From the IMG/VR virus record IMGVR_UViG_3300029417_000059: a stretch of 18,835 nucleotides of DNA; one strand, 5' to 3'. Position numbers: made by a program. Below, in pieces: positions 15,001 to 18,000 of the stretch. This DNA is from a virus. Lineage: Duplodnaviria; Heunggongvirae; Uroviricota; Caudoviricetes. Every line of letters begins with the position of its first letter. Position 1 is the stretch's first letter.

Positions 15001-18000
15001 GCAGGCCATGACACGCCCTCGTCATTGCTGTAGTCTGCAAGACGGGCCATAACCGCCACCCTGGATAAGATCATGCCGGTGAAGGCGCACCCTTCCCAGA
15101 CAAGACCATGAAGCTTGCTGCTCATAAAACCCCCGAACACCGTGCTTTTAGTGCATCACCACAGCATTCCCTGCCGGGCCGCCGCGATTCATCTGGTCAT
15201 ACAAAACAACCGCTGACGCAACAAAATCATCGACATCCTTCACCAGCCGATCCCTCCGTTCGACGATCTCACGGTAATATTCAGAACTGTGGCTGCGCAT
15301 ACGGGCCACCAGCAAAGGCGGCATCGCCTTTTCGATCGCCGGTAACAGAGCCTGCATTTTTTCAACAGCATCAGGGGTGTCTTTCTCTACCCAGCGGAAA
15401 ATTTTCTGGGTATTGCGAGCCAGGGCTTCCGGATGGCTGTCGTCATACAGTTCTGGGAACGTCATACCCAACTCAAAATAAGCCTGGGTTATTCCAGCTG
15501 CTGGAACTTTTTCGCCATCAGGACGCGCCCAGGCATTCATCGCCATGCGGATGTGTTCATGCTTGATTTTCATGAATCAAGCTCCTAGAAAGTGGTTGTG
15601 TTAACGTTTTGGTATCTTCCAGCTCGGGCCAAATATTCATCCAATCAAAAGGCCTTAGTTGCTGACGTGTAACTTCACCATTACTGGCTCGCTCAATAAG
15701 GACACATAACGATGCCCCTAACACTTGACCTTTACTCAATGCCTTTCTTAGATAACCGATGCTGGTACCACACTCGCATGCAAACATACGCTGTTCATCT
15801 GACGAAAGAGAATTGAGAAATATTCTTAATTCTTCCATAGCTACTCCTTAGTAAACACAGCAAAAGAATACCCACAGGTAAACAAAAGTCAATACCCACA
15901 GGTTGTTTACCTTGCGGTAATCGCATCTATTATTTACCTATGGACAAATATGAATTTAGACGACAGCAACTCATCAAAATTCGTGATGAGAAATGCGATG
16001 GTAAAGCGGTTAACGTGGCCAGAAAGATCGGGCGCGAGCCTTCTTATGTATCAAGAATGTTGTACCCAGAGGGGAAAAAGGGAAAAAAACGGATCGCTGA
16101 TGATATGGTGGAGATTATCGAAGAGTCCTTTGGGTTACCCCGGGGATGGATGGATGGTATCGTTTCATCATCAACGAACACAGCCTCCAGTTATGAAACA
16201 AGGGTTCTAACGCCACGACAACGTATTTTTTTAGATCTCTTAGACGAACTGCCAGAAAGTGAAGCGGATAAATTATTAAAAACTCTTGAAGAGAAAAAAC
16301 AGTATTACAATATGATCTACGAAGAAATCCGTAAAAAGAAAGCACAAAACGCATCATAGCTCACCAAACAACTAGTCACCAGTTAAGACACCGCAAAAAT
16401 TTACCCATGGGTATTTACTTTTTAAATACCTATGGGTATCCTTCTTTTCATACCAACCCACCCCGCCCCACAGAATGCAGGGCAATACTTCGAGTTACCA
16501 GGCAGTGGTCAGGGGTTAAGTAGCCAGCCCGAGGCGTAAGAACATGACGGCAGGGTTCAACTTTAATAACTATGCAGCAGGTTTTTGTTCCGCTACCCCG
16601 GCGTTAAGGGGAAATGAGGTCAGCATGGATACTATCGATCTTGGCAACAGCGAATCTCTGGTATGTGGCGTGTTCCCCAACCAGGACGGTACGTTCACCG
16701 CGATGACGTATACCAGAAGCAAAACGTTTAAAACTGAAGCTGGCGCGCGTCGCTGGTTAACCAGAAACACTGACTGATGAGGTTGACGATGGAATTTAAA
16801 GATTTACCAGTACCATTCCAGGAAATGGCATCGAATGTGGTTCGCTCTCAACTGGCGACTCTTGACCTGAGTACCGTAGAAAAGGAAACCATCGATACTA
16901 TATCCGGTAACGTGCGTCGTGCCTTTATAGGTCTGTATGAAGAGAAGCGCCTATTCGGCGGACAGAATTCGCCTGAAAACAAGAATCAAGCAAATGATGA
17001 GAAGCTGAAACACATTATCGCCTTACTTTTGGAAGACGCAAAACGTCTACAGCAACTGGAACCAAATGCAGGCACAGAGGCCCGCATTTGGATTGCCATG
17101 AAATCACTCAAATGTGAAAGCAGTGATTATTTCAAAACAACAATTAAAACTACTCAACTTTCGGGAGAGCTACTGAAGAAATTGCCATAAGAGCATAGTC
17201 TTTCTCTTGTTCTGCAAGATGAGCATTAATACCTGGTATGGTTTTTTCAAATTTATCTATCTGTTGAATAACAACTTCGCGGTATACGTTTGTTTTTGTA
17301 CCACCAAGCGCAGCCGTTAATGCAGAAAGCATATTTAGTATCATATCAGTGCGATATGAAAGAATCCTGATAGCTTCATCTTGTTCTTCAATAATAGATT
17401 GCAGGGCCTCAATTTGCTTTTTATCCATTTCACCCTCCTGAGGGTTGGTAATTAAGGAGTTCTCCACGGGTCAGGTGGAGTGCGTGCGCCGGACACGGGT
17501 GAGCATCCGGCACTGACAGCTTACTGAAAGGATATGTCCCTGAAAAGTCAGGGCATAACGCGAAAGCGCACGGCGAAATTGGTCTCTCTGTACGGTGTCG
17601 TTAAATTTAGTTCGACCGTGCGCTTCCGGTTGTGGCACTCCGCGAAATGGCGCGGCGGTAAGTATGGCTGGGGTTTCCTCCATTGCTCCAGAAAATGCAC
17701 CGGGTTGTCAGGTTGACCATACGCTTAAGTGACAACCCCGCTACAACGCCCTCTGTTATCAATTTTCTGGTGACATTTGGCGGTATCAGTTTTACTCCGT
17801 GACTGCTCTGCCGCCCTTTTTAAAGTGAATTTTGTGATGCGGTGAATGCGGCTATGCGCACGCGGAACAGTTAAAGCAGTAAGGCGGTATTTTACGGGCG
17901 TAACGAGCATCAACTAACCCGGCGTTAATTGTTAACTGGTTAACGTCACCTGGAGGCACCAGGCACTGCATCACAAAATTCATTGTTGAGGACGCGATAA

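What the first reader, a model, noticed from the sequence alone, without database searches (positions are those of the whole stretch)
15865..16440. Immunity switch with four related operators and a leaderless repressor mRNA
Sites with the core TACCCANNGGTA occur twice between the divergent cro-like and repressor genes and twice just downstream of the repressor gene in front of the early-left operon, mimicking lambda OR and OL without rex genes in between. The repressor -10 TATTAT ends 6 nt before its ATG, implying a leaderless transcript like lambda cI from PRM.
Basis: seen in the sequence. Interest (0 to 1): 0.4.

Follow-up and report, generated by a model that had tools for sequence, protein, structure and literature searches.

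The report
Lambda-like prophage switch with leaderless repressor
This is the on/off control region of a common E. coli prophage: a repressor and a Cro-like protein share five related DNA sites placed over three promoters, an ordinary lambda-type design whose site sequence has not been described in the papers I could search.

Summary
TACC-N4-GGTA occurs exactly four times in the 18.8-kb window against 0.11 expected. All four lie in the two control regions, at 15869, 15908, 16402 and 16427. A fifth site with one mismatch is at 15893.

Phages mEp043 and CharmingMan, and most of 42 genome loci from Gamma- and Betaproteobacteria, encode the same 72-residue N-terminal DNA-binding domain. They keep sites about 72, 47 and 32 nt before the repressor ATG. 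They also keep a downstream pair 25-26 bp apart that brackets a promoter. Three loci with an altered recognition helix lack the sites. Phage Tritos has the same flanking genes and the same repressor C-terminal domain but another DNA-binding domain, and it has other operators.

A -10-like hexamer ends 6-7 nt before the invariant ATG in 33 of 44 loci, with no Shine-Dalgarno sequence. This supports a leaderless mRNA, as shown experimentally for lambda cI, PaaR2, RacR and DicA. The repressor joins an mEp043-type DNA-binding domain to a DicA-like C-terminal domain and has no S24 protease. Verdict: an undescribed specificity of a well-known kind of switch. No binding or transcript mapping was possible.

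The parts
15148..15573 (-). ydaT (CII-like regulator) gene
   Evidence: Pfam YdaT_toxin E 2.6e-9. About 96% identical to CP-933P YdaT, PDB 8bt1, E 1e-88.
15563..15580 (.). YdaT binding site TTGATTTTCATGAATCAA at the cro/ydaT junction; marks a PRE-like region pointing towards the repressor gene
   Evidence: The only 0-mismatch match to TTGATT-N6-AATCAA in the window. The motif was footprinted for CP-933P YdaT in PMC9986795.
15557..15838 (-). cro-like (YdaS-type) gene, 93 aa, with Shine-Dalgarno AAGGAG at 15844-15849
   Evidence: PHROG 35 E 4.8e-23. 73% identical to mEp043 gp51 in the cro position. Homologues lie divergently next to the repressor in 34 fetched loci. Sequence.
15865..15892 (-). 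PR-like promoter: -35 TTGACT 15892-15887, spacer 16, -10 TATTCT 15870-15865; predicted start about 15858
   Evidence: Promoter scan, 9 of 12 matches. The same layout (site, -35, 11 nt, site plus -10) is seen across the family.
15869..15880 (.). O1 operator TACCCACAGGTA, overlaps the PR -10; centre about -16.5 from the PR start
   Evidence: Present at -71 to -75 from the ATG in 35 of 41 non-redundant loci, an exact palindrome in 33.
15893..15904 (.). O2 operator TACCCACAGGTT, abuts the PR -35 and the PRM -35; centre about -41 from both predicted starts
   Evidence: Present in 33 of 41 loci, and the right half-site is imperfect in 30 of those 33.
15908..15919 (.).
   Evidence: Present at -32 to -35 in 35 of 41 loci.
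15906..15933 (+). PRM-like promoter: -35 TTTACC 15906-15911, spacer 16, -10 TATTAT 15928-15933; predicted start = A of the ATG at 15940
   Evidence: Promoter scan. A -10-like hexamer ends 6 or 7 nt before the ATG in 33 of 44 loci.
15940..16359 (+). Repressor gene, 139 aa: helix-turn-helix N-terminal domain (residues 1-72), disordered linker, DicA-like helical C-terminal domain (89-138)
   Evidence: PHROG 5736 E 6e-70. N-terminal domain shared with S24-type CI proteins. C-terminal domain matches DicA at E 2e-7 and NCBIfam DicA at E 1.9e-5. AlphaFold model pLDDT 84.8.
16402..16413 (.). OLa operator TACCCATGGGTA, directly upstream of the PL -35
   Evidence: A downstream pair 25-26 bp apart is found in 32 of the 45 loci examined, including redundant ones.
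16427..16438 (.). OLb operator TACCTATGGGTA, overlaps the PL -10
16414..16442 (+). PL-like promoter by family analogy: -35 TTTACT 16414-16419, spacer 17, -10 TATCCT 16437-16442; predicted start about 16449
   Evidence: In relatives the -35 (TTGACn or TAGACA) follows OLa directly, and the -10 starts with the last TA of OLb. mEp043's record annotates its putative PL at the equivalent place. Only 8 of 12 consensus matches here, which is below the scan's threshold.
16402..16449 (+). Hairpin formed by the OL pair (16 pairs, 5-nt loop) followed by TCCTTCTTTTC; candidate terminator of the repressor transcript
   Evidence: Terminator scan. RNA fold -22.2 kcal/mol, z -5.95. There is no other terminator between the stop codon and OLa, unlike in relatives.
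16625..18188 (+). Start of the early-left operon controlled by PL: DUF1391 gene 16625-16777, gene 16789-17190, DicF RNA 17765-17816, dicB 18000-18188
   Evidence: PGAP annotation of the identical E. coli locus. Pfam DUF1391. Rfam DicF 77 bits.

Best explanation
The region is the immunity switch of a lambdoid E. coli prophage inserted next to ompW. Inferred steps: dimers of the 139-aa repressor, and in the lytic state the Cro-like protein, bind 12-bp sites with invariant TACC/GGTA half-sites. At PR (15892-15865, minus strand) O1 covers the -10 and O2 abuts the -35, so occupancy shuts off cro-ydaT-replication transcription. At PL (16414-16442) the pair OLa/OLb has the same geometry and shuts off the DUF1391...DicF-DicB-exonuclease-xis-int operon. 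O2 is centred about -41.5 from the repressor start, where lambda OR2 sits for activation of PRM. O3 lies over the PRM -35 and spacer and would give negative autoregulation at high repressor levels. The O2 right half-site is imperfect in most relatives, which suggests it is filled cooperatively from O1, 24-25 bp away. The repressor mRNA made from TTTACC-16-TATTAT starts at or within a base of the A of the ATG and is translated without a leader. A second, leadered transcript probably comes from a YdaT-activated PRE-like promoter near the exact YdaT site at 15563-15580. The repressor is a mosaic: an mEp043-type DNA-binding domain joined to a DicA/Tritos-type helical C-terminal domain in place of the S24 self-cleaving domain. 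It should therefore not be cleaved on RecA activation. Shown here: the sites, their statistics, their conservation and their co-variation with the DNA-binding domain. Inferred: binding, promoter use, transcription start, cooperativity, activation and non-inducibility.
For: Sites: 4 exact TACC-N4-GGTA in the window against 0.11 expected, all in the two control regions, plus 15893 with one mismatch. Homology: the N-terminal 72 aa are 70-82% identical to many S24-type CI repressors, including phages mEp043 and CharmingMan, whose Cro proteins are 73% and 50% identical. Layout: mEp043 and CharmingMan show O1/O2/O3 and an OL pair at the same relative places. Of 41 non-redundant loci, 29 keep all three OR sites at about -73, -48 and -33 from the ATG. 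The half-site bases are 97-100% conserved in O1 (88-100% across the intact half-sites of all three classes), while the central 4 bp vary. 32 of the 45 loci examined have a downstream pair 25-26 bp apart with a -35 directly after the first site and a -10 beginning in the second. Specificity controls: three loci with a changed recognition helix have no sites, while every locus with a helix of the SYVxRMLY type (seven carry one conservative change) has at least one. Phage Tritos shares ydaT, the repressor C-terminal domain and the PL leader, but has another DNA-binding domain and no TACC-N4-GGTA in its control regions. A 97%-identical E. coli variant differs only in the central N4 bases of O2 and OLb. 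Leaderless mRNA: a -10-like hexamer ends 6-7 nt before the ATG in 33 of 44 loci, with no usable Shine-Dalgarno sequence. M1 and residues 3-8 are invariant, and there is no upstream in-frame start. Precedent: leaderless paaR2 by 5' RACE and N-terminal sequencing (PMC8630535), racR by primer extension (PMC9638921), and dicA, racR and ymfK by differential RNA-seq (PMC4681348). Fold: helix-turn-helix N-terminal domain, linker and C-terminal helical hairpin. The nearest solved structures are phage and Xre/C-protein helix-turn-helix repressors. C-terminal domain homologous to DicA. YdaT site and protein.
Against: No binding, footprint or transcript data exist for this module. The promoter scan finds 2 promoter-like sites in 15700-16650 against 2.2 expected in shuffles, so the hexamers are not significant on their own and rest on conserved position. 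PL matches only 8 of 12 consensus positions. The comparative data cannot separate repressor binding from Cro binding, because both genes travel with the sites. O2-O3 are 15 bp apart, unlike lambda's 23 bp, so the lambda autoregulation scheme may not transfer exactly. Klebsiella relatives lack O2. Related loci are not independent samples. The structure model is a monomer, so oligomerisation and cooperativity are untested.
Confidence: 0.8

Rival explanations
1. The repressor is made only from leadered transcripts that start far upstream, from the YdaT-dependent PRE-like promoter or another promoter, and is translated internally without a Shine-Dalgarno sequence. In this view TATTAT at 15928 is not a working -10.
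For: An exact YdaT site lies 360 nt upstream on the correct side. CP-933P has a YdaT-activated PRE. The promoter scan is not enriched over shuffles.
Against: The -10-like hexamer keeps a 6-7 nt gap to the ATG in 33 of 44 loci, most of which have no ydaT. O3 is placed conservatively over a -35-like TTTACC. Every tested repressor in this gene position is leaderless. A PRE route would add to PRM, as in lambda, not replace it.
Confidence: 0.12
2. The downstream pair 16402-16438 is mainly an intrinsic terminator hairpin for the repressor gene, not an operator pair. Its likeness to the OR sites is secondary.
For: A 16-pair stem at -22.2 kcal/mol with z -5.95, followed by a T-rich run. No other terminator follows the stop codon here, whereas relatives have a GC-rich one.
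Against: The same pair, with the same 25-26 bp spacing and promoter hexamers, is present in 31 other loci where the hairpin is weak (-6 to -18 kcal/mol), and up to 1.8 kb from the repressor stop. What is conserved is the half-sites, not stem pairing. The two roles do not exclude each other.
Confidence: 0.05
3. The sites are chance matches or relics without a present function, for example in a decayed cryptic prophage.
For: Many E. coli prophages of this type are defective. Frameshifted versions of the repressor exist in databases.
Against: 0 of 200 shuffles reach the observed count. The module is more than 99% identical in 696 complete E. coli genomes. The layout is conserved across two proteobacterial classes.
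Confidence: 0.03

Closest known systems
Bacteriophage lambda CI/Cro switch (OR1-3, OL1-3, PR, PRM, PL; leaderless cI from PRM; CII-dependent PRE)
   Same: Divergent repressor and cro genes. Three operators over back-to-back promoters. A site centred near -42 of the repressor promoter. A second operator set at the leftward early promoter downstream of the repressor gene. O1-O2 spacing of 24-25 bp. The -10 ends 6 nt before the ATG. A CII-like route is present. The lambda details are from established knowledge and from the papers read.
   Different: No sequence similarity of the operators. The sites are 12 bp with 4-bp half-sites. O2-O3 are 15 bp apart, not 23. Only two OL sites were found. There are no rex genes and no N gene. 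The repressor lacks the S24 self-cleaving domain.
CP-933P immunity region of E. coli O157:H7 (PaaR2 / YdaS / YdaT; PMC8630535, PMC9986795)
   Same: The same YdaT (about 96% identical) and the same YdaT site. A Cro-like YdaS-type gene. A short repressor without an S24 domain. In CP-933P the leaderless repressor mRNA was shown by 5' RACE and OR/OL operators by footprinting.
   Different: Different specificity: the CP-933P repeats have the consensus GTTTAGTAA, against TACC-N4-GGTA here. PaaR2 starts MQKKE and is followed by the paaA2-parE2 toxin-antitoxin pair, which is absent here. Homology of this repressor to PaaR2 was not tested because no sequence was on hand.
Rac prophage RacR / YdaS / YdaT (PMC9638921)
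   Same: The same gene order. A leaderless main racR transcript. Three inverted-repeat operators in the intergenic region.
   Different: The repressor has no detectable similarity to RacR. RacR operators are (T/A)TAGGC-N3-GCCTA(T/A). YdaS and YdaT are only distantly related to those here.
Qin prophage DicA / DicC with the ydfA...dicF-dicB operon
   Same: The C-terminal domain of the repressor is homologous to that of DicA (33% identity, E 2e-7; NCBIfam DicA). The controlled operon has the same DUF1391...DicF-DicB content. The dicA mRNA is leaderless.
   Different: The N-terminal DNA-binding domain and the operators are unrelated to DicA's.
Phage mEp043 (NC_019706) cI/cro, and the many S24-type prophage CI proteins with the MDKYE... 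N-terminal domain
   Same: True homologues of the DNA-binding domain (76% identity) and of Cro (73%), with the same O1/O2/O3, OL pair and -10-to-ATG geometry.
   Different: They carry an S24 (LexA-like) C-terminal domain, 221-242 aa in total, and in mEp043 a lambda-type cII and N. Their operators are not annotated in the record and were not found in the searchable literature.

Membership tests
Lambdoid CI/Cro-type immunity switch | Divergently transcribed repressor and cro genes separated by a short shared control region | tested here: met
   Cro-like gene 15557-15838 (-) and repressor 15940-16359 (+), 101 bp apart. The same pairing is seen in 34 related loci.
Lambdoid CI/Cro-type immunity switch | Several related, partly palindromic operators overlapping back-to-back promoters | tested here: met
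   O1, O2 and O3 overlap the predicted PR and PRM hexamers, and their positions are conserved.
Lambdoid CI/Cro-type immunity switch | A second operator set at the leftward early promoter | tested here: met
   OLa/OLb at 16402 and 16427, with promoter hexamers in the family-typical places.
Lambdoid CI/Cro-type immunity switch | Repressor and Cro bind the operators and give two stable states | not testable with these tools
   Needs gel-shift or footprinting and reporter assays. Only co-variation of the sites with the DNA-binding domain was shown.
LexA/S24-type (RecA-cleavable) CI repressors | C-terminal Peptidase_S24 domain | tested here: not met
   No Pfam hit. The protein ends at 139 aa with a DicA-like helical domain. 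Homologues with the same N-terminal domain do carry PF00717.
Leaderless prophage repressor mRNAs (lambda cI, paaR2, racR, dicA, ymfK) | -10 hexamer placed so that transcription starts at the A of the start codon | tested here: met
   TATTAT at 15928-15933 and ATG at 15940. The gap is 6-7 nt in 33 of 44 related loci.
Leaderless prophage repressor mRNAs (lambda cI, paaR2, racR, dicA, ymfK) | No Shine-Dalgarno sequence, and no alternative in-frame start upstream | tested here: met
   No GGAG/GAGG/AGGA/AAGG in the 20 nt upstream. The first start codon after the stop at 15838 is 15940. Residue 1 is invariant.
Leaderless prophage repressor mRNAs (lambda cI, paaR2, racR, dicA, ymfK) | Mapped 5' end at the start codon | not testable with these tools
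   Needs 5' RACE or differential RNA-seq on a carrier strain.
mEp043-type immunity specificity (homology group) | Homologous DNA-binding domain, homologous Cro and the same operator half-sites | tested here: met
   76% identity, 73% identity, and TACC-N4-GGTA at the same offsets.
DicA-type C-terminal domain | Sequence homology to residues about 81-131 of DicA | tested here: met
   NCBIfam NF007257 E 1.9e-5 over profile positions 81-131. BLASTP E 2e-7 at 33% identity.
YdaS/YdaT module (Rac, CP-933P) | YdaT-family protein with its TTGATT-N6-AATCAA site at the ydaS/ydaT junction | tested here: met
   Pfam YdaT_toxin above its cut-off. PDB 8bt1 E 1e-88. Exact site at 15563-15580.
YdaS/YdaT module (Rac, CP-933P) | Cro-like protein belongs to Pfam YdaS_toxin | tested here: inconclusive
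   25.8 bits, below the gathering score of 30. Weak local similarity to Rac YdaS, E 1e-6.

The most novel reading that the evidence does not exclude
In this prophage the OL operator pair may have a second role as the intrinsic terminator of the leaderless repressor transcript. When the S24 domain was exchanged for the short DicA-type domain, the GC-rich terminator that relatives keep between the repressor gene and OL was lost. The two palindromic operators with symmetric flanks now form a 16-pair hairpin followed by a T-run, 43 nt after the stop codon. One DNA element would then stop PRM read-through as RNA and block PL as a protein-binding site, keeping DicF and DicB silent in the lysogen.
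Probability: 0.3. Interest if true: 0.45.

Novelty: new member of a known kind. Interest (0 to 1): 0.3.

Why it matters
About 15% of complete E. coli genomes (822 of 5,426, including CFT073) carry this module, and RefSeq labels its repressor 'hypothetical protein'. Naming it as the prophage repressor and giving its operator consensus, TACC-N4-GGTA, has practical uses. It allows annotation, immunity-group prediction and simple experiments, such as testing homoimmunity with phage mEp043. The repressor presumably keeps the cell-division inhibitors DicF and DicB silent. The family also shows modular exchange clearly: one DNA-binding domain, Cro and operator layout, conserved from Enterobacteria to Neisseria and Xanthomonas, is combined either with a RecA-cleavable S24 domain or with a DicA-like domain that lacks the protease. 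It does not change how such switches are understood.

Tried and rejected
- **Family scans of the repressor.** Pfam gave no hit for the repressor. The PDB sequence search gave only chance-level hits. The N-terminal domain is therefore classed by predicted fold and by homologues only.
- **RacR homology.** Rejected: BLASTP E 2.3.
- **A fourth OR site over the ATG (15935-15946).** It has 2 mismatches and no counterpart in relatives, so I treat it as chance.
- **A third OL site.** Nothing convincing lies within 60 bp on either side of the pair.
- **An alternative PL (TTTACC 16400-16405 / TAAATA 16423-16428).** Dropped in favour of the placement conserved across the family.
- **Literature.** Searches for six operator strings returned only unrelated primer sequences. 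The 14 papers mentioning mEp043 appear, from their titles and abstracts, not to concern its operators.
- **Foldseek.** The whole-model matches are weak (TM 0.44-0.47 to the Salmonella phage repressor in 5d50), so no structural family membership is claimed beyond an Xre-like helix-turn-helix domain.
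Full report
**What is in the sequence**

The window matches E. coli chromosomes at 100% identity. The region is a lambdoid prophage inserted next to ompW. The gene order around the finding is as follows:
- a DnaC-like gene, 13410-14156 (-)
- a replication initiator, 14163-15140 (-)
- ydaT, 15148-15573 (-)
- a cro-like gene, 15557-15838 (-)
- a 139-aa repressor gene, 15940-16359 (+)
- a DUF1391 gene, 16625-16777 (+)
- a further gene, 16789-17190 (+)
- DicF RNA, 17765-17816 (+)
- dicB, 18000-18188 (+)

**Checking the observation**

- 15869 TACCCACAGGTA
- 15893 TACCCACAGGTT
- 16402 TACCCATGGGTA
- 16427 TACCTATGGGTA

Reduced to its half-sites, TACC-N4-GGTA has exactly four exact matches in 18,835 bp against 0.11 expected. 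All four lie in the two control regions.

The right operator therefore has three sites, with centres 24 and 15 bp apart. The left operator has two sites 25 bp apart. A sixth candidate over the ATG (15935, two mismatches) has no counterpart in relatives and I discount it.

TATTAT lies at 15928-15933, and exactly six bases separate it from the ATG at 15940.

**Promoters**

The consensus scan reports two promoter-like sites in the intergenic region. They are TTTACC-16-TATTAT on the plus strand (15906-15933) and TTGACT-16-TATTCT on the minus strand (15892-15865). The count in the scanned region is no higher than in shuffles, so these hits mean little on their own. Their weight comes from conserved position, described below.

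With these promoters the geometry is as follows:
- O1 overlaps the PR -10.
- O2 lies between the two -35 hexamers, about 41 bp from both predicted starts.
- O3 covers the -35 and spacer of the repressor promoter.
- The predicted repressor start is the A of the ATG.

**Who the repressor is**

Pfam does not recognise the protein. PHROGs calls it a transcriptional regulator. It is unrelated to RacR.

A database search shows that its first 72 residues are 70-82% identical to the N-terminal domain of many 221-242-aa CI repressors with an S24 (LexA-like) domain. These come from Salmonella, Klebsiella, Pantoea, Edwardsiella, Yersinia and others. A smaller set of 135-140-aa proteins shares its whole length.

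Residues 89-134 are homologous to the C-terminal domain of DicA of prophage Qin. The AlphaFold model (pLDDT 84.8) has a four-helix N-terminal domain with a helix-turn-helix at residues 23-41, a disordered linker, and a C-terminal helical hairpin. The nearest solved folds are Xre/C-protein-type and phage repressor helix-turn-helix domains.

**Comparative test of the operators**

Two sequenced phages, mEp043 and CharmingMan, encode S24-type CI proteins with this N-terminal domain, at 76% and 70% identity. Their Cro proteins are 73% and 50% identical to the window's. Both have TACC-N4-GGTA sites in the same order before the ATG, and a pair 25-26 bp apart further downstream.

A scan of one genome per species returned 42 more loci. 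They range from Enterobacterales to Aeromonas, Neisseria, Xanthomonas, Stenotrophomonas, Burkholderia-group bacteria and Ferrovum. The results among 41 non-redundant loci are these:
- 29 have all three sites, at about -73, -48 and -33 from the ATG.
- O1 is an exact palindrome in 33 of 35 loci.
- O2 has an imperfect right half-site in 30 of 33 loci.
- O3 is exact in 25 of 35 loci.
- The TACC/GGTA bases are 97-100% conserved in O1 and 88-100% across the intact half-sites of all three classes, while the central four bases vary.

32 of the 45 loci examined, including redundant ones, also have a downstream pair. In those loci a -35 hexamer (TTGACn or TAGACA) follows the first site directly, and the -10 begins with the last TA of the second site. 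This is the same arrangement as O2/O1 at PR. By analogy the window's PL is TTTACT (16414-16419), a 17-nt spacer, then TATCCT (16437-16442), with a start near 16449.

**Controls for specificity**

- The three loci whose recognition helix differs (Advenella, two loci, and Nitrosomonas) have no such sites. Every locus with a helix of the SYVxRMLY type (seven carry one conservative change) has at least one.
- Phage Tritos shares ydaT (84% identity), the repressor's C-terminal domain (75% nucleotide identity) and the leader downstream of PL (95% identity from 16456). It has an unrelated N-terminal domain and GTAC-type repeats, and no TACC-N4-GGTA in its control regions.
- A 97%-identical E. coli variant differs within O2 and OLb only at central N4 positions.

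The sites therefore travel with the DNA-binding domain and Cro, not with the neighbouring genes. The data cannot say which of the two proteins binds, because both are always present together. By analogy with lambda, both do.

**Leaderless mRNA**

The first residue and residues 3-8 are invariant across the family. No in-frame start lies upstream. A hexamer with at least 4 of 6 matches to TATAAT ends 6 or 7 nt before the ATG in 33 of 44 loci. My own estimate for one AT-rich position meeting this by chance is roughly 7%. Shine-Dalgarno-like tetramers at a usable distance are essentially absent.

Experimental precedents exist for repressors in this gene position:
- paaR2 of CP-933P, by 5' RACE, N-terminal sequencing and mass spectrometry (PMC8630535)
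- racR, by primer extension and -10 mutagenesis (PMC9638921)
- dicA, racR and ymfK, which are three of the only five leaderless mRNAs found in E. coli K-12 by differential RNA-seq (PMC4681348)

The start itself could not be tested here.

**A second route to the repressor**

The window's YdaT is about 96% identical to CP-933P YdaT, PDB 8bt1. The exact footprinted YdaT site, TTGATT-N6-AATCAA, occurs once in the window, at 15563-15580 on the cro/ydaT junction. In CP-933P this region holds a YdaT-activated PRE. A leadered establishment transcript is therefore likely here too. It would add to the PRM transcript and does not contradict it.

**What is unusual**

- The repressor is a mosaic of an mEp043-type DNA-binding domain and a DicA/Tritos-type C-terminal domain. 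It should be homoimmune with SOS-inducible relatives while lacking the self-cleaving domain.
- O2-O3 are only 15 bp apart.
- The OL pair with its symmetric flanks forms a 16-pair hairpin (-22.2 kcal/mol, z -5.95) followed by a T-run, 43 nt after the stop codon. Most relatives with OL close to the gene have a separate GC-rich terminator there, and the window has none. A dual operator/terminator role is possible but unproven.

**Verdict**

The finding is real and its interpretation is essentially right. It needs one more operator, a defined PL and a PRE-like route. It is a new member of a well-known kind of switch. I found no description of the operator motif or of this family's layout in the searchable literature. 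RefSeq labels the repressor 'hypothetical protein', although the module is present in 822 of 5,426 complete E. coli genomes.

Noticed in passing
window 17765-17816 (+) and 18000-18188 (+): DicF small RNA (Rfam RF00039, 77 bits) and dicB lie in the operon downstream of the predicted PL. The early-left operon is of the Qin type, so the repressor presumably keeps two cell-division inhibitors silent.
   Followed up: partly
window 15563-15580: An exact copy of the published YdaT recognition site TTGATT-N6-AATCAA lies at the cro/ydaT junction, centred on the ydaT start codon. The YdaT here is about 96% identical to the crystallised CP-933P protein.
   Followed up: partly
window 15159-15585, 16243-16358 and 16456-16756, compared with L048 (phage Tritos): Mosaic joints: ydaT, the repressor's C-terminal domain and the PL leader are shared with a phage of a different immunity type. 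Homology resumes about 7 nt after the predicted PL start. One joint falls inside the repressor gene, between the linker and the C-terminal domain.
   Followed up: partly
window 16083-16089: A run of seven A lies inside repressor codons 46-50. Database proteins P0010 and P0019 are frameshifted versions that start at the out-of-frame ATG 15950, and P0010 rejoins the repressor frame at the run. This could be a slippage hotspot, a set of pseudogenes or sequencing error.
   Followed up: no
L007, L009-L012 (Klebsiella), about -73 and -33 from the repressor ATG: A variant right operator with only two sites 40 bp apart and no O2. In L007 and L011 only the -73 site meets the match criterion. The repressor there has a different S24-type C-terminal domain, 233 aa in total.
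   Followed up: no
L042 and L046 (Advenella), upstream of the repressor ATG: Distant homologues with a changed recognition helix lack TACC-N4-GGTA. They carry other inverted repeats instead, for example TACCGC-N8-GCGGTA, which suggests a shifted specificity within the family.
   Followed up: no
L003 (mEp043) 3553-3574: A wide-spaced inverted repeat, TACCTG-N10-CAGGTA, lies about 20 bp upstream of the mEp043 OL pair. It could be a third left operator with unusual spacing.
   Followed up: no
window 16544-16624: An in-frame upstream extension of the DUF1391 gene (77 aa against the 50 aa called by PGAP) lies in a leader that is 88-98% conserved among phages of different immunity types. PHROG families include the extension. 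It is unclear whether it is coding or a conserved RNA leader.
   Followed up: no
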